Shown: positions 3,197 to 59,436 of the stretch, piece by piece
Layout of the letters: every line of letters starts with the position of its first letter
Position numbering within the stretch: position 1 is the stretch's first letter
Source: Escherichia coli
GTDB taxonomy: Bacteria > Pseudomonadota > Gammaproteobacteria > Enterobacterales > Enterobacteriaceae
Assembly: GCF_041886205.1 (NCBI RefSeq)
Contig: NZ_CP169029.1
Length of the DNA: 64,000 bases
Reading direction: 5' to 3' (one strand)
The notes under the pieces: generated by a model
Database searches by the model: none
Told to the model about the DNA's origin: nothing
What the model saw: the letters and a program-made list of their open reading frames with translations, nothing else
Made by a program: the position numbers and the translations under genes

Positions 3197-4351
3197 TTAC
3201 TTCAGACCGGCAGCATCGCGCAGCAGCTGCGCTTTGTCGGTTTTTTCCCACGGGAAATGTTCACGACCAAAGTGACCGTATGCTGCGGTTTCTTTGTAGA
3301 TCGGGTGCAGCAGATCCAGCATCTGAATCAGACCGTATGGGCGCAGGTCGAAGAACTCACGTACCAGCAGAGTCAGTTGTTCAGAAGGCACTTTCTCAGT
3401 ACCGAAAGTTTCTACCATGATGGAGGTCGGTTCAGCCACGCCGATTGCGTAGGAAACCTGAATTTCACAACGATCGGCCAGGCCAGCAGCAACGATGTTT
3501 TTCGCGACATAACGTGCTGCGTAGGCTGCGGAACGGTCCACTTTTGATGGATCTTTACCAGAGAATGCTCCGCCACCGTGACGTGCCATGCCGCCGTAGG
3601 TATCAACGATAATTTTACGACCAGTCAGACCGCAGTCACCCATCGGGCCACCGATAACAAAACGACCGGTCGGGTTGATGAAGAATTTGGTGGCAGAAGT
3701 CAGCCATTCAGCGGGCAGAATCGGCTTGATGATCTCTTCCATTACCGCTTCTTGCAACGATTTCTGGTCGATCTCTTCAGAGTGCTGAGTGGAAAGCACG
3801 ACAGCATCGATACCAACGATTTTGCCGTCGTCATACTGAAAAGTCACCTGGCTTTTCGCGTCCGGGCGCAGCCACGGCAGAGTGCCGTTTTTACGCACTT
3901 CAGCCTGACGCTGTACCAGACGGTGTGCATAGGTGATAGGTGCTGGCATCAGCACGTCGGTTTCATTAGTTGCGTAGCCAAACATCAGACCCTGGTCACC
4001 CGCGCCCTGTTCCAGCGGATCGGCACGGTCAACGCCCTGGTTGATGTCAGGAGACTGTTTGCCGATAGCGCTCAGAACCGCACAGGAGTTAGCGTCAAAG
4101 CCCATGTCGGAATGCACATAGCCAATTTCGCGAACGGTGTTACGGGTGATCTCTTCGATGTCTACCCAGGCGCTGGTGGTGATTTCGCCGCCAACTAAAA
4201 CCATGCCGGTTTTTACGTAGGTTTCGCAAGCAACGCGTGCTTTCGGATCCTGTTCGAGGATCGCGTCTAAAACGGCATCAGAAATTTGGTCAGCAATTTT
4301 GTCAGGATGCCCTTCAGAGACGGACTCGGACGTAAAAAGGTGTTTTGCCAT
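3197..4351 (-). CDS. metK: S-adenosylmethionine synthetase, 384 aa
   Basis: ORF track 3197..4363; true start is the ATG at rc 4349-4351 giving [32 protein letters not shown]; GHPDK and [12 protein letters not shown] motifs present. Confidence 0.97.
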
Positions 4352-4406
4352 ATTTAATATCACCTAAAGAGAATTTGGTTAGCTCAAACTGTTGTGTGGA
4401 TTTTCT

Positions 4407-4658
4407 GTGGTAGCGGATCCTACCACGACTCTGCAGGTTAAAAACACTGGCAGTCTGAGTGTTAATCGGTATGGATGGATTAACATCTGGATGGCTATTT
4501 TAGGTCAATTCTTCACCCTATTTCCACTTTTTTTTGAATCGTGTCTCATTCTGTTAAAAACGTGGCTGGAAATTTTTCCTGACAATGCCGGCATTCTGCG
4601 TATTTATCTTTTGCAATTTTCTGCCATTGTGGGGTATAAAACGCGGCGCGCGGCTTAA
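4407..4658 (+). CDS. Small hypothetical protein (83 aa from GTG), possibly corresponds to yqgD; may not be expressed
   Basis: ORF track 4392..4658 (88 aa from TTG); GTG at 4407 gives 83 aa. Hydrophobic, no recognizable domain. Assignment is by position and length only. Confidence 0.3.
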
Positions 4659-4870
4659 ATAAAAAGCACACGACGTTTCTTTCGTGTTGCCACTTCCAGC
4701 CGGGTTGAAATCAGAGTTTTGGCTTGTGGGTTCGTCTTAACAGGCGGCCGTGGAGGTGATACGAAATAATGAACCGTTGTCTGCTGCTTAACCTGTCTCA
4801 CCGTTCTGGTGAAGATTCGTTCCCCGCACTCTGCATCTCTGCTTTGCATACCTGCCGATGTTATACCCAT
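4655..4870 (-). CDS. Small hypothetical protein (71 aa), possibly corresponds to yqgC
   Basis: ORF track 4655..4870 minus, ATG start; 71 aa, basic, no domain recognized; lies in the metK-speA divergent intergenic region. Confidence 0.3.
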
Positions 4871-5005
4871 CTCGGCGCTTCTCAGGATTCAAGAGCTGGT
4901 TACAGTTACTGAGGACTGAACAAGGGCGCTCTTGTAAAAACAAGAGTTTTCTCGTGGTTTCGCCGAACTGTCACACTTACGTTCGGTTATGTGCTTAATA
5001 ATGTT

Positions 5006-23783: not shown

Positions 23784-24524
23784 GTGAAGTTCAAAGTTAT
23801 CGCCCTGGCGGCATTAATGGGTATTAGCGGGATGGCAGCGCAGGCTAACGAATTGCCGGATGGACCGCATATTGTCACCTCCGGTACGGCAAGTGTGGAT
23901 GCGGTGCCAGACATTGCCACTCTTGCGATTGAAGTTAACGTGGCCGCGAAGGATGCCGCTACAGCCAAGAAACAGGCAGATGAGCGCGTCGCACAATACA
24001 TTTCCTTCCTTGAACTCAATCAGATCGCGAAAAAAGATATCAGCTCAGCGAATTTACGCACCCAGCCAGATTATGATTATCAGGATGGTAAAAGTATCCT
24101 GAAAGGCTACCGCGCTGTGAGAACGGTGGAAGTCACGCTCCGTCAGTTAGACAAACTGAATTCCTTGCTGGATGGCGCGCTGAAGGCGGGTCTTAACGAA
24201 ATTCGTTCAGTGTCGCTGGGCGTGGCGCAGCCGGATGCCTATAAAGACAAAGCGCGTAAGGCAGCGATTGATAACGCGATTCATCAGGCGCAGGAACTGG
24301 CGAACGGCTTTCATCGTAAACTGGGGCCGGTATATAGCGTGCGCTACCATGTTTCCAACTATCAGCCCAGCCCAATGGTGCGGATGATGAAAGCCGATGC
24401 CGCGCCGGTGTCTGCCCAGGAAACTTACGAGCAGGCCGCTATTCAGTTTGATGATCAGGTCGATGTGGTCTTCCAGTTAGAACCTGTGGATCAACAACCC
24501 GCTAAAACACCTGCAGCACAATAA
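23784..24524 (+). CDS. yggE: Periplasmic SIMPL/DUF541-family protein YggE, 246 aa
   Basis: ORF track 23784..24524, GTG start; signal peptide MKFKVIALAALMGISGMAAQA. Confidence 0.9.
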   Translation: MKFKVIALAALMGISGMAAQANELPDGPHIVTSGTASVDAVPDIATLAIEVNVAAKDAATAKKQADERVAQYISFLELNQIAKKDISSANLRTQPDYDYQDGKSILKGYRAVRTVEVTLRQLDKLNSLLDGALKAGLNEIRSVSLGVAQPDAYKDKARKAAIDNAIHQAQELANGFHRKLGPVYSVRYHVSNYQPSPMVRMMKADAAPVSAQETYEQAAIQFDDQVDVVFQLEPVDQQPAKTPAAQ

Positions 24525-24690
24525 TACTTGTAGCCCGACGTATTCGTCGGGCTAATGCCTTTACCCGATATTGCCTCCTTTTTCTGTAATTTTCTGTAAA
24601 ACCATGACGTAATCACCTATCTTTGCTCGCGGTTTCATCAAGGATAGGCTGACTGAAACGGTTAAGCGGACAAGGATGCGGGGAGGGGGG

Positions 24691-25587
24691 ATGGACATTT
24701 TTATTTCGAAAAAGATGCGCAATTTCATTTTATTAGCGCAAACCAATAATATTGCCCGGGCGGCAGAAAAAATCCATATGACGGCTTCGCCATTTGGTAA
24801 AAGCATTGCCGCGCTGGAAGAACAAATTGGCTATACGCTATTTACCCGCAAAGATAATAATATCAGCCTCAATAAAGCCGGTCAGGAACTGTATCAAAAA
24901 CTGTTCCCGGTTTATCAACGACTTTCTGCGATTGATAATGAAATCCATAACTCAGGGCGTCGTTCACGAGAAATTGTGATTGGCATAGATAATACTTATC
25001 CGACAATTATTTTCGATCAGTTGATTAGTCTCGGAGATAAGTATGAAGGCGTGACCGCCCAGCCAGTTGAGTTCAGCGAAAACGGCGTTATCGATAATCT
25101 TTTTGACCGTCAGTTAGATTTTATTATCTCCCCACAGCATGTATCTGCACGAGTTCAGGAACTGGAAAACCTGACTATCAGTGAATTACCACCGCTGCGA
25201 TTGGGCTTTCTCGTTTCTCGCCGTTATGAAGAGCGTCAAGAGCAAGAGCTGCTTCAGGAGCTGCCCTGGCTACAAATGCGCTTTCAAAACCGGGCTAACT
25301 TCGAAGCAATGATTGATGCGAATATGCGACCTTGTGGGATCAATCCAACCATTATTTATCGTCCCTACAGTTTTATGGCCAAAATCAGCGCCGTGGAGCG
25401 CGGACATTTTCTGACGGTGATCCCGCATTTTGCCTGGCGACTGGTGAATCCGGCAACGCTGAAATATTTTGATGCACCGCACAGGCCGATGTATATGCAG
25501 GAATATCTTTATTCAATCAGAAATCATCGTTATACCGCCACGATGCTTCAGCATATTGCTGAAGATCGTGACGGGACAAACCATTAA
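24691..25587 (+). CDS. ygfI: LysR-family transcriptional regulator, 298 aa
   Basis: ORF track 24676..25587; ATG at 24691 with strong RBS (ggggagggggg); N-terminal wHTH (ARAAEKIHMTASPFGKSIAALEEQIG). The stop overlaps the scpC stop by 4 bp. Confidence 0.88.
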   Translation: MDIFISKKMRNFILLAQTNNIARAAEKIHMTASPFGKSIAALEEQIGYTLFTRKDNNISLNKAGQELYQKLFPVYQRLSAIDNEIHNSGRRSREIVIGIDNTYPTIIFDQLISLGDKYEGVTAQPVEFSENGVIDNLFDRQLDFIISPQHVSARVQELENLTISELPPLRLGFLVSRRYEERQEQELLQELPWLQMRFQNRANFEAMIDANMRPCGINPTIIYRPYSFMAKISAVERGHFLTVIPHFAWRLVNPATLKYFDAPHRPMYMQEYLYSIRNHRYTATMLQHIAEDRDGTNH

Positions 25588-27062
25588 CCCAGCATCGAGC
25601 CGGTTGCAATTAAATTACGGTGTAAGTCGAAGACGTGGCTAAGATCGTGGTGAATATGTCCGCCGGGCGCATTTTCCAGATAGCGATGCAGATAATCCCG
25701 ATACATAGGATGTGCACAATTATCAATGATAGTGCGGGCGCGTTGAAGCGGGGAAAGACCGCGCAGATCGGCGATCCCTTGTTCGGTGATGATCACTTTG
25801 ACGCTGTGTTCGCTGTGATCAACATGGCTGCACATTGGCACGACGGTTGAGATCTTGCCTTCTTTAGCAATCGACGGAGCCATAAAGATCGACAGATACG
25901 CGTTGCGTTCAAAATCACCGCTGCCGCCGATGCCGTTCATCAGATCGACCCCGGCTACGTGCGTTGAGTTGGCATGCCCGTAAATATCAAACTCCAGGCC
26001 GACGTTCAGAGCGATGACGCCCAGACGACGGATGATTTCCGGGTTATTGGAAATCTCCTGCGGACGCAACACAATGCGGCTGGCAAAGTAATCCATATTG
26101 TCGTAAATCTTGCGCAGGGAATCGGCCGAGATTGTCAGGCTGGAGGCGCTGGCCCCGCTGATTTTGCCGGTTTCCAGTAAATGCACCACCGATTCCTGTA
26201 GCACTTCCGAATACATCATAAAAGGAGGAATTTCCGGATTTTCCCCCAGACGCGCCATTACCGCATTATTGATGTTGCCCACGCCACTTTGCAGCGGCAG
26301 AAATTCCGGCGGAATACGCCCATGCGCCATTTCCTGCAACAAGAACGTGACCACGTTATCGGCAATCTGCTGGCACATGGGATTTTGCTTATCCAGCGTA
26401 TTACCGGCATCGGGCAAGTTGGTTTCCACGACGGCGACAATCTTTTTCGGATCGATTTGCACATAGCGGGTACCGACGCGATCCATTGCATGGAAGATCG
26501 ACACGCTATTGCGCCGCGGTGGCGCGCCAGGAATCACAATATCCGCCAGTTCTGCAACGCGCGGATCGTGATAGTGATTGAGTTCAATGATCACTTTCTT
26601 CGCTCGCAGCAGCCAGGTCGGCGCATTACCGATCCCGCTGGTTAACCAGACTCGACCATCCGGTGCCAGTGCCGATGCTTCAATGACGGCAACATCAATG
26701 TCGCCGAAGAAACCGTAATTGACCATTTGCGCCACTTCGCTCAAATGCAGGTCAACGAAACTCACCGCGCCCTGATTGATCTTTTTACGTAAACCGGACG
26801 ATGTTTGATATGGTGCACGCCAGGAAACAGCATCGGCGTCAGAAAGTACATCGTCAGCGGCGGCGCTGATTGACGCACCCGTCAGCAGGCGAATTTGATA
26901 CGGCTTTTTGGCCTCATGCTGTTCGTTAGCTCTGCGGGCAATCGCGGTGGGTAGGGCTTTCGGCGAACCCGCCGGGGTAAAGCCGCTAAATGCCACCATG
27001 TCGTTATGCTGGATAATTTCTGCCGCTTCATCGGCGGTCATCCTTGTCCACTGAGTTTCCAT
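25584..27062 (-). CDS. scpC: Propionyl-CoA:succinate CoA transferase, 492 aa
   Basis: ORF track 25584..27062 minus; acetyl-CoA hydrolase/transferase family. Confidence 0.95.
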   Translation of the reverse strand: METQWTRMTADEAAEIIQHNDMVAFSGFTPAGSPKALPTAIARRANEQHEAKKPYQIRLLTGASISAAADDVLSDADAVSWRAPYQTSSGLRKKINQGAVSFVDLHLSEVAQMVNYGFFGDIDVAVIEASALAPDGRVWLTSGIGNAPTWLLRAKKVIIELNHYHDPRVAELADIVIPGAPPRRNSVSIFHAMDRVGTRYVQIDPKKIVAVVETNLPDAGNTLDKQNPMCQQIADNVVTFLLQEMAHGRIPPEFLPLQSGVGNINNAVMARLGENPEIPPFMMYSEVLQESVVHLLETGKISGASASSLTISADSLRKIYDNMDYFASRIVLRPQEISNNPEIIRRLGVIALNVGLEFDIYGHANSTHVAGVDLMNGIGGSGDFERNAYLSIFMAPSIAKEGKISTVVPMCSHVDHSEHSVKVIITEQGIADLRGLSPLQRARTIIDNCAHPMYRDYLHRYLENAPGGHIHHDLSHVFDLHRNLIATGSMLG

Positions 27063-27085
27063 TTTTACTCCTTCGTTCGCAGGGA

Positions 27086-27871
27086 TTAATGACCAACGAA
27101 ATTAGGTTTACGTTTTTCGAGGAAAGCGTTCATTCCTTCCTGGTAATCTTCGCTGTCATAAACCGCGCGGCGCATCCCCTGAATACGTTCAAATTCATCG
27201 GAGTTCATGGTGTGCGCTTCGCCCAGTACACGCAGCTCTTCTTTGATAACAGCAATGGCTAACGGCGCTTTCTCAGAGATGTGGTGCGCCATTTGTAAGG
27301 TGAAATCTTCCAGTTCCTCCACTTCCACAACATGGTTGAGGATGCCGACAGCCAACGCGCGCTGGGCGGTGATTGGCGAAGCGGTAAAAATCAGTTCTTT
27401 AACAATGTGGAAGCCCGCGTCGCGGGTCAGGTTGTGAATACCGACCAGGTTATACGGGACGCCGAGGTTTACAGGCGTCATTGAGAAGGTTGAGGTATTG
27501 GCGGCGATGATCAGATCGGAACTCATGATCATTTCAAATGCGCCACCCCAAACACTACCTTCCACCATCGAAATGATCGGTTTCGGGAATTTTTGGATCA
27601 TGCGGGTGATTTGACGCAACGGATCATCATAGGAGAGCGGATCGCGACCGCCAGACGGCAGTTCGTGAATATCGTGGCCTGCGGAGAAGACTTTGGATCC
27701 ACTCGGCGCGCGCAAAATGATACAGCGAATTTCGGGCCGGTTGAGATCGCTTAATGCCTGCATAAGATCATCAATAAAGACTTTACTTAAGGCATTAAGT
27801 TTGCGGCCATAGTTAAACTCAATGACCGCCACTTTGTTGATAGTGACAACGTTAACATACTGATAAGACAT
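27086..27871 (-). CDS. scpB: Methylmalonyl-CoA decarboxylase (crotonase fold), 261 aa
   Basis: ORF track 27086..27913; ATG at rc 27869-27871 gives MSYQYVNVVTINKVAVIEFNYGRKLNAL. Confidence 0.93.
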   Translation of the reverse strand: MSYQYVNVVTINKVAVIEFNYGRKLNALSKVFIDDLMQALSDLNRPEIRCIILRAPSGSKVFSAGHDIHELPSGGRDPLSYDDPLRQITRMIQKFPKPIISMVEGSVWGGAFEMIMSSDLIIAANTSTFSMTPVNLGVPYNLVGIHNLTRDAGFHIVKELIFTASPITAQRALAVGILNHVVEVEELEDFTLQMAHHISEKAPLAIAVIKEELRVLGEAHTMNSDEFERIQGMRRAVYDSEDYQEGMNAFLEKRKPNFVGH

Positions 27872-27881
27872 AAAAATTCCT

Positions 27882-28877
27882 TTAATCAAAATATTGCGTC
27901 TGGATAAATTCACTGAGCTGCCGCAGGCCGGTGCGCGGTGAGAGCGTATTGTTTTTGACCGCTAAAAGCGTCTGGCGGTAATAGCGATCGAAATCTTCAT
28001 TCGCGAACAGGTGATTCAGTACTTCTTCTTCGGTCTGCTTACGCAGCCATTCCACCGATTGTTGTTGCCGCACTTGTTGTAAACGACCACTGGCAGTTAG
28101 CGCGGTTTTGAAGTCGATGATGGCGTGCCAGATCTCATCGATTCCACGTTTTTCCAGTGCGCTACAAGTCAGAACCCGTGGCTGCCATTCGTCGTATTTA
28201 CGTCGCAGAATATGCAGGGCACTCTCGTACATATGCCGGGCAATGGCGACATTGGTATGGTTATCGCCATCGTCTTTGTTGATAACGAGCAGATCAGCCA
28301 CTTCCATCAGCCCTTTTTTAATGCCCTGCAGATCATCGCCGCCACCGGCAATTTGCAACGAGATAAAACAGTCCACCATGCGGGCGACTTCCGTTTCCGA
28401 CTGCCCGACGCCAACCGTTTCGACAATCACTACGTCATAACCCGCCGCTTCGCATAACAGCATTAATTCCCGCGCTCGCTGACTGGCACCGCCCAGATGA
28501 CCGGAGGATGGTACCGGGCGAATAAACGCCGCTTCGGCACGCGCCAGGTCATTCATGCGGGTTTTATCCCCGAGAATGCTACCGCCAGTGACCGGGCTGC
28601 TGGGATCGACCGCAATAACCGCGACCTTTAATCCCTCACGAATCAACAACATGCCAAAGGCTTCAAGAAAGGTACTTTTCCCCGCGCCGGGTGTGCCGGT
28701 AACGCCCAGTCGCAGGGCGTTACCGCAGTACGGCATAATGGCATCAAGCAGTTGCGTACTTAGCGCCTGATGACGCGGGTGACGGCTTTCCACCAGCGTC
28801 ATGGCCTGGGCGAGTGTGGCACGCTCACCCTGACGTAAGCGGCGAATACTTTCTGCCAGCGTGGCTTCATTAATCAT
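27882..28877 (-). CDS. argK: MeaB/ArgK-type G-protein chaperone for methylmalonyl-CoA mutase, 331 aa
   Basis: ORF track 27882..28877; P-loop GTPGAGKST; the start overlaps the scpA stop by 8 bp. Confidence 0.95.
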
Positions 28878-31014
28878 GATGCTGGCTTATCAGATTCAGT
28901 ACGTCGCGCACACTGTCGAGCATAGGTGTACCTGGACCATAAATCGCCGCCACGCCGCGCTCTTGCAGGAAGGCGTAATCCTGCGGTGGAATGACGCCAC
29001 CGGCGACTACGCAGATATCTTCGCGTCCCCATTTTTTCAGCGCTTCGACCAGTTCCGGGATCAGCGTTTTATGACCGGCAGCCAGTGAGGATGCGCCCAC
29101 TACGTGAACGTCGTTTTCTACGGCCAGGCGGGCGATCTCTTCAGGTGTAGAGAACATCGGGCTTAAATCTACGTCGAAACCGAGATCGGAATAGGCGCTG
29201 GCGATCACTTTTGCGCCGCGATCGTGCCCATCCTGGCCCATTTTAGCGATCAGAATGCGCGGGCGACGACCATTGTCGGCAAGGAACTGCTCCGTTTGCG
29301 CAACAATGGCATCGAACTCGGAGGCCGATTTCTCAGATTGATGATAGCTTTGCGCAATCACGCCGGTAACACACTGGCTTGGCACCAGATAACGGTCGAA
29401 AGCGGCTTCCAGCGCATCGGAAATTTCACCCAGGGTGGCGCGAACGCGAGCGGCATTAACAGCGGCAGCCAGCAGGTTTTCGTTATGCTGTGCGGCGTGA
29501 GTCAGGGCGTTCAACGCGGCGGTTACGGCGGCATCATCACGGGTGGCGCGAATGCGTTCCAGCGAAGCAATTTGCTCGTTACGCACCATCACGTTGTCGA
29601 TCTCAAGTACATCGGTTTCGTCTTCGTGATCCAGTTTGTACTTGTTGACACCAACGATGACACGTTTGCCCTGGTCGATAAGCGACTGTTCGCGCGCTGA
29701 GGCCTCTTCGATCATTCGTTTTGGCAGACCTGCTTCGATCGCTTTCGCCATGCCACCGGCTTCGTCGATCTGTTGGATAATGGCTCTGGCTTGTTTGACG
29801 ATTTGATCGGTCAGCGACTCAACGTAATAGGATCCGGCCAGCGGATCGACGGTGCGGCAGAGTTCTGATTCTTCCTGGATGATGATCTGGGTGTTGCGGG
29901 CAATGCGTGCGGAGAAATCGGTAGGCAAACCAAGCGCTTCGTCAAAGGCGTTGGTATGCAGTGACTGAGTACCGCCCAGCGTCGCAGCCAGTGCTTCAAT
30001 GGTGGTGCGGATAACGTTGTTATACGGATCCTGTTCAGTCAGGCTCCAGCCTGAGGTCTGGCAGTGGGTACGCAGCGCCAGTGATTTCGGGTCCTGTGCG
30101 CCAAATCCACTGACCGCTTCGCTCCATAAATAACGTGCCGCACGCAACATGGCGACGTTCATAAACAGATCCATGCCGATGCCGAAGAAGAACGACAGGC
30201 GAGGAGCGAAGTCATCAATTTTCAGCCCGGCGGAGATTGCTGCTTTGATGTACTCAATCCCATCGGCGAGCGTAAATGCTACCTGCTGCACGCAGTTGGC
30301 ACCCGCTTCACCCATGTGGTAACCGCTGATACTGATGGTATTAAATCGCGGCATGTTGCCAGAACACCAGGCGATGATGTCGGCGATAATGCGCATTGAC
30401 GGTTTTGGCGGGTAAATATAGGTGTTGCGGCAAAGATACTCTTTGAGGATATCGTTTTGAATGGTGCCGGTCAGTTTATCAGGTGTAACACCTTGCTCTT
30501 CTGCGGCGACGATATAAAACGCCAGTACTGGTAGCACTGCGCCATTCATGGTCATCGAAACCGACATTTTTTCCAGCGGGATCTGGTCGAACAGGACTTT
30601 CATATCTTCCACGGTGTCGATAGCGACGCCCGCTTTGCCGACGTCGCCCGCCACGCGCGGGTTATCGGAGTCGTAGCCTCGGTGGGTGGCAAGGTCAAAC
30701 GCAACGGAAAGACCTTTTTGCCCGGCGGCCAGGTTACGGCGATAAAAAGCGTTGGACTCTTTTGCTGTTGAAAAACCAGCATACTGACGGATGGTCCACG
30801 GTTGGGCGGTATACATAGTGGCACGCGGGCCACGAACGTAGGGCGGCAAACCAGGAAGGGTACCTGTCACCTCCAGATTATCGAGATCGGCTTCGGTATA
30901 CAGCGGCTTGATGGCGATCCCTTCCGCGGTTTGCTGAACCAGCGAGTCGACAGTTTTCTCCCGACGGCTCAATTCCTTGTTGGCAAGCTGTTGCCACTCC
31001 TGCACGTTAGACAT
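28870..31014 (-). CDS. scpA: Methylmalonyl-CoA mutase (B12-dependent), 714 aa
   Basis: ORF track 28870..31035; ATG at rc 31012-31014 gives [40 protein letters not shown]. Confidence 0.96.
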
Positions 31015-59187: not shown

Positions 59188-59436
59188 AATTTCTCACATG
59201 TAATTCTGATCACTCATCATTATAGATAATTGAAGAGTGAAATGATTAACCAAGTGAGCGTTTATCGACAACCGCCCGTTTTGAGCGGATGTCGACAGGT
59301 AAAAACCATTTAAAAAAGTAGCATCATATATTTGAAGCGACTTTCAATGGCCATTGCAACACAGTCAGAAATAACAGGAATAGAGAGAGTAAAAAGCAAC
59401 AGCAGACTGAATATAGCGCGCATTAAAAAATTCATA

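What the first reader, a model, noticed from the sequence alone, without database searches (positions are those of the whole stretch)
25584..25587. Convergent genes ygfI and scpC share a 4-bp stop-codon overlap with no intervening terminator
The LysR regulator gene ygfI (plus strand) and the last gene of the scpA-argK-scpB-scpC operon (minus strand) end on the same 4 bp. Transcription from each side must run into the other gene, which suggests antisense interference between the regulator and the operon.
Basis: seen in the sequence. Interest (0 to 1): 0.2.

Follow-up and report, generated by a model that had tools for sequence, protein, structure and literature searches.

The report
Overlapping stop codons hide conserved hairpin
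Two E. coli genes that face each other do share four bases at their stop codons, which is a common and already catalogued arrangement, but the operon gene scpC is followed at once by a strong, evolutionarily conserved RNA hairpin hidden inside the end of the regulator gene, so its messenger RNA probably has a defined end.

Summary
srsR (ygfI, + strand, ends 25587) and scpC (- strand, ends 25584) share TTAA, which holds both TAA stops. This is an ordinary class. The four tetramers CTAA/TTAA/CTAG/TTAG were described in 2007, with 58 convergent overlaps in E. coli. A second TTAA case (yqfH/yqfG) lies in this window. The pair is already listed in the 2025 E. coli "excludome".

"No terminator" holds only for the intergenic space. 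Starting 7-9 nt after the scpC stop, inside srsR codons 282-296 (25533-25576), the scpC-sense RNA forms an 18-20 bp hairpin. It folds at about -31 kcal/mol, z = -5.6, and is the strongest post-stop structure of 59 genes in the window. It is kept in 30 orthologous loci with compensatory changes. It is far more stable than synonymous recoding of SrsR predicts (p <= 0.001-0.011). It fits the scpC strand better than the srsR strand, and it has no U-tract.

My best reading is a protective 3' stem-loop of a Rho-terminated scp transcript. srsR-sense RNA has no counterpart. Antisense interference is untested and probably weak, because the operon is "silent". srsR travels with the scp genes in three genomic contexts. 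Interest is low to moderate.

The parts
24691..25587 (+). srsR (ygfI, also proposed as dhfA), a LysR-type regulator of 298 aa with stop TAA at 25585-25587
   Evidence: ORF and translation. RefSeq annotation. Pfam HTH_1 at residues 8-65 and LysR_substrate at 89-283.
25584..27062 (-). scpC (ygfH), propionyl-CoA:succinate CoA transferase of 492 aa, last gene of scpA-meaB(argK)-scpB-scpC; its stop TAA reads TTA on the + strand at 25584-25586
   Evidence: Pfam AcetylCoA_hydro and AcetylCoA_hyd_C.
25584..25587 (.). TTAA, the 4-bp tail-to-tail overlap that holds both stop codons
   Evidence: Exactly 4 bp in 36 of 42 orthologous loci, with TTAA, CTAA, TTAG and CTAG all seen.
25533..25576 (-). Conserved RNA hairpin in scpC-sense RNA. 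The core stem is 25535-25574 (18 bp), the loop is 25554-25556, and a bulged C lies at 25545. It starts 7-9 nt after the scpC stop and lies inside srsR codons T282-T296. No U-tract follows it (GGCGG|UAUAACGAUGAUUUC).
   Evidence: MFE -32.1 kcal/mol, z = -5.56, 0 of 200 shuffles as stable. Only 5 of 12790 60-nt windows in the 64 kb fold as well. It is the strongest post-stop structure of 59 genes. It is conserved in orthologues. In the alignment 94.5% of cells pair, and 6 pairs carry double-sided changes against 1.5 in shuffles. RNAalifold predicts the same helix. The synonymous-recoding test gives p <= 0.001-0.011. Pairing is 94.5% on the minus strand and 85.6% on the plus strand.
25384..25503 (-). 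Mildly C-over-G stretch, +81..+200 after the scpC stop, in RNA antisense to srsR. It is a candidate Rho loading and termination zone. This is inferred, not shown.
   Evidence: C 28-31%, C/G 1.14-1.16, and 11-13 YC dimers per 80 nt. The pattern matches what Dar & Sorek 2018 describe downstream of such stem-loops.
25868..26347 (+). C-rich, G-poor stretches in RNA reading out of srsR into antisense scpC (+281..+440 and +561..+760). They are candidate Rho sites for srsR transcripts. No selected hairpin occurs on this side.
   Evidence: C/G 1.26-1.32 and 1.35-1.71. The best post-stop structure for srsR is only -13.7 kcal/mol, rank 42 of 59. The recoding test on +105..+183 is not significant (E. coli p = 0.69).
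27086..31014 (-). scpB (27086-27871), meaB/argK (27882-28877) and scpA (28870-31014, intact in this window), the upstream genes of the operon whose transcript ends at the hairpin
   Evidence: Annotation. The scpA ORF is intact here.

Best explanation
The two genes sit in the most compact tail-to-tail arrangement possible, sharing YTAR (here TTAA) so that neither protein is altered. The arrangement is old, predating the Escherichia-Yersinia split. It persists because each stop codon is under purifying selection and because 3n indels in the variable SrsR tail keep the reading phase. With no intergenic space, the 3' end signal of the scp operon has moved into the neighbour's coding sequence. RNA polymerase leaving scpC transcribes the last ~50 nt of srsR in antisense, and that RNA folds into an 18-20 bp stem-loop starting 7-9 nt after the stop codon. 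The stem-loop has no U-tract, so it is not a canonical intrinsic terminator. I propose that Rho stops the untranslated transcript a little further on, in the mildly C-rich zone at +80..+200. 3'-5' exonucleases would then trim back to the hairpin, which protects the scp mRNA and fixes its 3' end. This is the behaviour Dar & Sorek described for Rho-dependent transcripts, including ends inside downstream coding regions. srsR transcripts have no such element and probably end diffusely by Rho inside antisense scpC. The mature RNAs would then be complementary over only about 55 nt, so mutual interference is expected to be small at the low native expression of both units. Shown here: the overlap, its conservation, the hairpin, and the selection on the hairpin and its strand bias. 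Inferred: Rho dependence, exonuclease trimming, the position of the 3' end, and weak interference.
For: Overlap and annotation. Conservation of the junction: 36 of 42 loci have exactly 4 bp, all four tetramers occur, and the 4-bp overlap is kept even where the junction moved by 6 bp (ESNIH1/UBA7338) or by a 3-nt indel (Yersinia). Hairpin stability: -32.1 kcal/mol with z = -5.56, top 0.04% of windows in the 64 kb, and rank 1 of 59 post-stop regions while srsR ranks 42. Selection on the structure: orthologues fold at -24 to -35 kcal/mol, in the top 0-2.3% of their locus background. In the alignment 94.5% of cells pair against 28-56% when the partner is slid. Six pairs have changes on both sides against 1.5+-1.1 in shuffles (0 of 500), and A-U -> G.U -> G-C series appear at two pairs. 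RNAalifold recovers the helix independently. Given the SrsR protein sequence and srsR codon usage, random synonymous recodings fold at -16 to -22 kcal/mol against -27 to -37 observed, p <= 0.001-0.011 in 16 taxa. The same test is negative in Yersinia and Kosakonia pseudosacchari, which lack the hairpin, and at a control region inside scpC. Strand: 63 G.U-type cells against 10 A.C-type cells, and recoding p-values are weaker on the plus strand. No U-tract is present. The literature model is in Dar & Sorek 2018, PMC6061677. The element is single-copy and matches no Rfam family.
Against: No mapped 3' end, bicyclomycin response or exonuclease data for scpC or ygfI was found in any held supplement. 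The function of the hairpin is therefore inferred from sequence alone. The C>G enrichment after the hairpin is weak (C/G about 1.15). The orthologues are related, so the recoding p-values and covariation counts are not independent events. The arms encode well-conserved residues, which limits how freely they can vary. Yersinia and two Kosakonia species keep the gene pair without any hairpin, so the hairpin is not indispensable. The plus-strand version is also significantly stable (-25 kcal/mol, z = -4.6), so a role in srsR mRNA or on DNA is not excluded.
Confidence: 0.6

Rival explanations
1. Neither transcript has any end signal, so convergent polymerases and long complementary RNAs make srsR and the scp operon repress one another, as a functional excludon.
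For: The coding sequences overlap, so the transcripts must overlap. scpC-ygfI is in the MG1655 convergent excludon list. srsR-sense RNA shows no hairpin or terminator after its stop. The pair is conserved as convergent neighbours in all 42 loci.
Against: The excludon call is based on coverage and is nearly automatic when coding sequences overlap. The paper does not test reciprocal expression for this pair. A selected hairpin lies right after the scpC stop. The operon is described as silent and srsR is weakly expressed. Synonymous sites near the junction outside the hairpin show no extra constraint. Neither SrsR regulon study reports any effect on scp genes.
Confidence: 0.15
2. The hairpin is a by-product. 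The palindrome arose by chance in codons for the conserved SrsR C-terminus, is kept only by protein constraint, and has no RNA function.
For: The arms encode nearly invariant residues (YTATMLQHIAEDRDG) in the hairpin-bearing taxa. Strong local folds also occur inside other coding regions of the window. Hairpin-free lineages exist.
Against: Synonymous recodings of the same peptide almost never fold as well (p <= 0.001-0.011). Double-sided compensatory changes exceed all 500 shuffles. Some compensations need amino-acid changes, such as Thr->Ala in Aeromonas sp. RU39B and Kosakonia sacchari. ESNIH1 and UBA7338 carry a hairpin in a different register at the same place. In Yersinia the same protein tail diverges strongly, so the protein itself does not demand this sequence.
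Confidence: 0.1
3. The inverted repeat works on DNA as an operator for SrsR or another factor, or in the srsR mRNA by slowing ribosomes or stabilising that mRNA, and not in scpC-sense RNA.
For: The plus-strand RNA also folds well (-25 kcal/mol, z = -4.64). The loop region TCAGCATATTGC (25548-25559) resembles the published SrsR box TCAGATTTTGC with one extra base.
Against: G.U-compatible variants favour the minus strand (63 against 10 cells; 94.5% against 85.6% paired). A conserved one-base bulge and 18-20 bp arms are unusual for an operator. gSELEX found no SrsR peak at this locus. A protective hairpin upstream of srsR's own stop would leave a stop-less mRNA, which is my inference.
Confidence: 0.1
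4. The hairpin is a canonical Rho-independent, possibly bidirectional, terminator.
For: It is a long GC-containing stem directly after a stop codon.
Against: No U-tract follows it on either strand and no A-tract precedes it (minus: UAUAACGAU; plus: GACAAACCA). The consensus terminator scan did not report it.
Confidence: 0.05

Closest known systems
4-bp convergent stop-codon overlaps (CTAA/TTAA/CTAG/TTAG) described by Lillo & Krakauer 2007 (PMC2174442)
   Same: Tail-to-tail genes share a tetramer that holds both stops. That paper already notes that terminators of such pairs must lie inside the partner's coding sequence, and it counts 58 convergent overlaps in E. coli.
   Different: Nothing differs in kind. 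What is added here is the depth of conservation (36 of 42 species-level loci) and persistence through junction shifts.
Protective 3' stem-loops of Rho-dependent transcripts (Dar & Sorek 2018, PMC6061677)
   Same: A stable stem-loop lies after the gene, without a U-tract or an upstream A-tract, and is followed by mild C>G. Such ends are also reported inside downstream protein-coding regions. The scpC hairpin matches these sequence features.
   Different: No mapped 3' end, Rho dependence or exonuclease dependence is available for scpC. This hairpin lies in a convergent gene, antisense to its coding sequence, and shows cross-genus covariation.
Convergent excludons (ExcludonFinder, PMC12288877)
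   Same: scpC-ygfI is listed among 165 convergent excludons of MG1655 on the basis of overlapping RNA-seq coverage.
   Different: The defining functional outcome, mutually exclusive expression through transcriptional interference or RNase III, has not been shown for this pair. The conserved hairpin suggests a limited overlap, not a long one.
Intrinsic and bidirectional terminators between convergent genes
   Same: A strong hairpin sits at the meeting point of two convergent transcription units.
   Different: There is no U-tract or A-tract, and the hairpin is embedded in a coding sequence instead of an intergenic spacer.

Membership tests
4-bp convergent stop-stop overlap (YTAR class) | Two protein-coding genes on opposite strands, tail to tail | tested here: met
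   ORFs, translations, Pfam domains and RefSeq annotation.
4-bp convergent stop-stop overlap (YTAR class) | An overlap of exactly 4 nt whose tetramer is CTAA, TTAA, CTAG or TTAG and holds both stops | tested here: met
   TTAA at 25584-25587. Orthologues show all four tetramers.
Convergent excludon | Overlapping transcripts from the two genes in vivo | not testable with these tools
   Reported in the literature only: Table 1 of PMC12288877. It is geometrically unavoidable if both genes are expressed.
Convergent excludon | Reciprocal, mutually exclusive expression caused by the overlap through interference or RNase III | not testable with these tools
   No data were found. The SrsR studies do not mention scp genes.
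Protective 3' stem-loop of a Rho-dependent transcript | An energetically stable stem-loop shortly after the gene | tested here: met
   -32.1 kcal/mol with z = -5.56, and rank 1 of 59 genes in the window.
Protective 3' stem-loop of a Rho-dependent transcript | No U-rich tract after the stem and no A-tract before it | tested here: met
   The sequence after the stem is UAUAACGAUGAUUUC. The terminator scan did not call it.
Protective 3' stem-loop of a Rho-dependent transcript | C-over-G enrichment (rut-like) just downstream | tested here: inconclusive
   C/G is only 1.14-1.16 at +81..+200.
Protective 3' stem-loop of a Rho-dependent transcript | A steady-state RNA 3' end mapped at the base of the stem, read-through with bicyclomycin, and trimming by PNPase or RNase II | not testable with these tools
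   No entry for scpC, ygfH or ygfI in the held Term-seq supplements.
Intrinsic (Rho-independent) terminator | A U-tract within 0-2 nt of the stem | tested here: not met
Repetitive extragenic palindromes (REP/BIME) or other repeat families | Many copies per genome | tested here: not met
   One place per genome in 5422 E. coli genomes. No Rfam match.
Structured RNA element under selection | Base pairs kept by compensatory changes beyond what relatedness or coding explains | tested here: met
   Six pairs with double-sided changes against 1.5 in shuffles, 0 of 500. The RNAalifold consensus agrees. The synonymous-recoding test is significant and its negative control is not.

The most novel reading that the evidence does not exclude
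SrsR/YgfI is the so far unrecognised dedicated regulator of the 'sleeping beauty mutase' (scp/sbm) cluster. The fixed 4-bp junction and the hairpin shared between the srsR coding sequence and the scp 3' UTR would then form a feedback device: operon transcription or its 3' UTR modulates srsR mRNA (an excludon-type loop), and SrsR controls the operon in response to an unknown effector.
Probability: 0.08. Interest if true: 0.6.

Novelty: new member of a known kind. Interest (0 to 1): 0.25.

Why it matters
The overlap needs no special explanation. It is a common, annotated arrangement that is already catalogued as an excludon.

Two things may still be useful. First, this is a clear case, supported by covariation, of an mRNA 3' stem-loop written into the coding sequence of a convergent gene. 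It constrains both synonymous codon choice and the C-terminal residues of a transcription factor. Annotation pipelines and terminator predictors that require a U-tract or intergenic space would miss such elements.

Second, srsR stays attached to scpC-scpB-meaB in three different genomic neighbourhoods, and it decays together with the operon in at least one E. coli lineage. That makes it a candidate regulator of an operon whose physiological role and induction have been unclear since it was named 'sleeping beauty'. The two published SrsR regulon studies did not look there.

Tried and rejected
- **Published 3'-end or Rho data.** I looked for scpC, ygfH or ygfI in supplements of six papers. Nothing was held or listed.
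- **Consensus terminator and promoter scan of 24300-27300.** The counts equal the chance expectation. The weak 5-bp hairpin at 25388-25403 is not supported as a terminator and is not kept as a structure in Yersinia.
- **Extra synonymous-site conservation near the junction across 32 orthologues.** None was found outside the hairpin.
- **A second structure for srsR-sense RNA.** A GC-rich zone at +105..+183 inside scpC folds well in some taxa. It is not more stable than recoded controls (E. coli p = 0.69), and the folds differ between taxa. I rejected it.
- **Rfam.** No family matched.
- **Repeat family.** Rejected, because the element is single-copy.
- **SrsR box TCAGATTTTGC in the window.** 21 matches against 24.9 expected, and none at the scpA promoter.
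- **Hairpin in the lineages that lack the E. coli type.** Yersinia and two Kosakonia species have no alternative strong hairpin within 260 nt.
- **scpA frameshift.** I first thought the window strain carries a frameshifted scpA, as in strain LHM10-1. The alignment shows the window copy is intact.

Full report
**Observation**

The window is E. coli chromosome; a 2.8-kb stretch around the finding matches 5425 of 5426 complete genomes. The + strand ORF ending at 25587 is srsR, formerly ygfI and also proposed as dhfA. It is a LysR-type regulator of 298 aa starting at the RefSeq start 24691. The - strand ORF 25584..27062 is scpC (ygfH), the last gene of scpA-meaB(argK)-scpB-scpC. The sequence ACCATTAACC at 25580-25589 holds TAA for srsR (25585-87) and, as TTA, TAA for scpC (25584-86).

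**Is the overlap unusual?**

No.
- Lillo & Krakauer (2007) describe exactly this class. They name CTAA, TTAA, CTAG and TTAG as the tetramers that end two convergent genes.
- They count 58 convergent overlaps in E. coli. In 58 genomes they count 1890 convergent overlaps, of which 672 are shorter than 5 nt.
- They also point out that terminators of such genes must lie inside the partner's coding sequence.
- Within this 64-kb window, 2 of 10 convergent pairs have a TTAA overlap. The other pair is yqfH/yqfG at 59310-59313.
- The pair scpC-ygfI is listed in the published MG1655 'excludome'. That criterion, overlapping RNA-seq coverage, is almost automatically met when coding sequences overlap.

**Conservation of the junction**

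A scan of one genome per species with SrsR returned 42 loci. In all of them srsR and scpC are convergent neighbours. In 36 loci the overlap is exactly 4 bp, and all four tetramers occur.

The exceptions are:
- Salmonella arizonae and diarizonae, with a 15-bp overlap from a shifted SrsR tail frame.
- Two Kosakonia species, with a 30-bp overlap.
- A record titled Aeromonas sp. RU39B, where the stops abut as TGA|TCA.
- A record titled Martelella alba, with a 128-bp spacer that carries its own strong hairpin.

The 4-bp form persists even where the junction moved. In ESNIH1 and UBA7338, SrsR is 2 codons shorter and ScpC 2 codons longer. Yersinia shows a 3-nt net change. I read this as inheritance plus purifying selection on both stops. 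The reading phase stays locked because only 3n indels preserve the SrsR tail. I do not read it as selection for the overlap as such; this is inference.

**The hairpin**

The consensus scan finds no terminator at the junction. Folding the RNA that leaves scpC shows a different picture.

*Structure and stability*
- From 7-9 nt after the stop codon, CCGUCACGAUCUUCAGCA-AUA-UGCUGAAG(C)AUCGUGGCGG forms an 18-bp stem with one bulge. In most species two more pairs extend it.
- It lies at window 25533-25576, inside srsR codons T282-T296.
- An 84-nt stretch folds at -32.1 kcal/mol, against -16.6+-2.8 for shuffles, z = -5.56.
- Only 5 of 12790 60-nt windows on either strand of the whole window fold as well.
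- Among 59 genes of the window, scpC has the most stable structure just after its stop (-29.4 kcal/mol per 50 nt). srsR ranks 42nd at -13.7.
- It is single-copy, present in 5422 of 5426 E. coli genomes, identical in K-12, and matches no Rfam family.

*Evidence for selection*
- Orthologues in Escherichia, Citrobacter, Klebsiella, Salmonella, Pluralibacter, Superficieibacter, Yokenella, Kosakonia sacchari and the RU39B record fold at -24 to -35 kcal/mol, in the top 0-2.3% of their own locus background (most at or below 1%). ESNIH1 and UBA7338 have a hairpin in another register at the same place. Yersinia and two Kosakonia species have none.
- On an alignment of 30 sequences, 94.5% of cells pair, against 28-56% when the partner column is slid.
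- Six pairs show changes on both sides, against 1.5+-1.1 in shuffles (0 of 500). That measure had a 0-1% false-positive rate in the tool's own trials.
- A-U -> G.U -> G-C series are visible at two pairs.
- RNAalifold predicts the same helix.
- *Synonymous-recoding test.* I kept each SrsR peptide, redrew its last 22 codons from srsR codon usage, and refolded. Simulated energies are -16 to -22+-3.7 against -27 to -37 observed, p <= 0.001-0.011 in 16 hairpin-bearing taxa. The test is not significant in Yersinia (0.33) or K. pseudosacchari (0.86).
- *Negative control.* The same test on a GC-rich stretch inside scpC is negative (E. coli p = 0.69).

*Which strand?*
- Variants that remain paired as G.U do so on the minus (scpC-sense) strand in 63 cells, or 35 without one fixed U.G pair. 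Only 10 cells do so on the plus strand.
- Overall pairing is 94.5% on the minus strand against 85.6% on the plus strand.
- Recoding p-values are weaker for the plus strand.
- A protective hairpin upstream of srsR's own stop would also make little sense for srsR mRNA; this is inference.

**What the hairpin most likely does**

No U-tract follows the stem on either strand: UAUAACGAU on the minus strand and GACAAACCA on the plus strand. It is therefore not a canonical intrinsic or bidirectional terminator.

- precise steady-state 3' ends right after stable stem-loops;
- no U-tract and no upstream A-tract;
- ends that can lie inside downstream coding regions;
- a mild C>G bias downstream;
- protection against PNPase and RNase II.

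Here C/G is 1.14-1.16 at +81..+200 after the scpC stop, which is only a weak match. My model has three steps. The ribosome leaves at the scpC stop and the hairpin forms. Rho then terminates in the following 100-200 nt of untranslated antisense-srsR RNA. Exonucleases trim back to the stem.

For srsR-sense RNA I found no selected structure. C-rich, G-poor stretches lie at +281..+440 and +561..+760, so diffuse Rho termination inside antisense scpC is the likely fate. None of these steps has experimental support for this locus. I found no 3'-end data in any held supplement.

**Antisense interference**

- Geometry guarantees at least a few bases of overlap, and about 55 nt if the hairpin marks the scp 3' end.
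- The operon is called 'silent' in the literature, and srsR is weakly expressed (base mean 21.6).
- Neither SrsR regulon paper (gSELEX, PMC9181523; ChIP-exo/RNA-seq, PMC9068703) mentions scp genes.
- Interference is therefore possible but unshown and probably small under laboratory conditions. It could matter only when the operon is strongly induced.

**Link between srsR and the scp genes**

- srsR stays with scpC-scpB-meaB where the left flank differs. The flank is yggE/argO/mscS in Escherichia, Citrobacter and Klebsiella. It is YniB-like plus HAD plus KduI in Yersinia, and H-NS-like plus Omp85 in Kosakonia.
- About 1100 of 5426 E. coli genomes carry a deletion from inside scpA to 153 bp before the scpC stop. 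In an ST131 genome srsR also has two internal stops, but in another deletion strain it is intact.
- This points to a functional tie between the regulator and the operon. However, the published SrsR box is not enriched in the window and is absent from the scpA promoter, and gSELEX gave no peak there.

**Verdict**

- The finding is real but ordinary and already catalogued.
- Its 'no terminator' premise overlooks a conserved, coding-embedded 3' stem-loop for the scp operon.
- That hairpin is a new member of a known kind.
- The interference hypothesis remains untested.

Noticed in passing
window 59310-59313: A second convergent 4-bp TTAA stop-stop overlap lies in the same window, between the small-protein genes yqfH (+) and yqfG (-). 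Thus 2 of the 10 convergent pairs here are of this type.
   Followed up: partly
window ~25737-30090; L044 and L045: About 1100 of 5426 complete E. coli genomes (for example ST131) lack most of the scp operon. A deletion joins the last 153 bp of scpC to the first 927 bp of scpA and leaves the TTAA junction and the hairpin as relics. In the ST131 record srsR also has two internal stop codons, while in strain SSGw1 it is intact.
   Followed up: partly
L002-L043 (srsR at ~4001-4897 in most loci): srsR is always the convergent neighbour of scpC-scpB-meaB, even where the other flank differs (Yersinia, Kosakonia, Superficieibacter, and the records titled Aeromonas sp. RU39B and Martelella alba). This suggests the LysR gene belongs to the scp cluster. 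Neither published SrsR/DhfA regulon study mentions scp genes.
   Followed up: partly
window 25388-25403: A weak 4-5 bp GC hairpin (GCGCUCCACGGCGC) is flanked by AAAAU upstream and AUUUU downstream on the + strand, so it looks terminator-like on both strands. It lies about 185 nt from the junction inside srsR. The number of such sites equals the chance expectation, and the structure is not kept in Yersinia.
   Followed up: partly
window 25548-25559: The apical part of the hairpin reads TCAGCATATTGC on the + strand. It resembles the published SrsR box TCAGATTTTGC with one inserted base. gSELEX reported no peak at this locus.
   Followed up: no
window ~30727 (scpA): The closest genome found, LHM10-1, has a 1-nt deletion that frameshifts scpA. 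The window copy is intact (714 aa, ATG at 31014), so the window is not from that strain and its scp operon looks complete.
   Followed up: yes
L046 3292-4773: In strain AMSCJX03 an IS1 element replaces the 3' part of srsR, all of scpC and part of scpB. This is another independent loss that removes the regulator and operon genes together.
   Followed up: no
window 25697-25790 (+ strand): A GC-rich stretch inside scpC, 110-190 nt after the srsR stop, folds strongly in several genera (-24 to -30 kcal/mol per 60 nt). The folds are inconsistent between taxa and no more stable than synonymous recodings, so they are probably compositional.
   Followed up: yes
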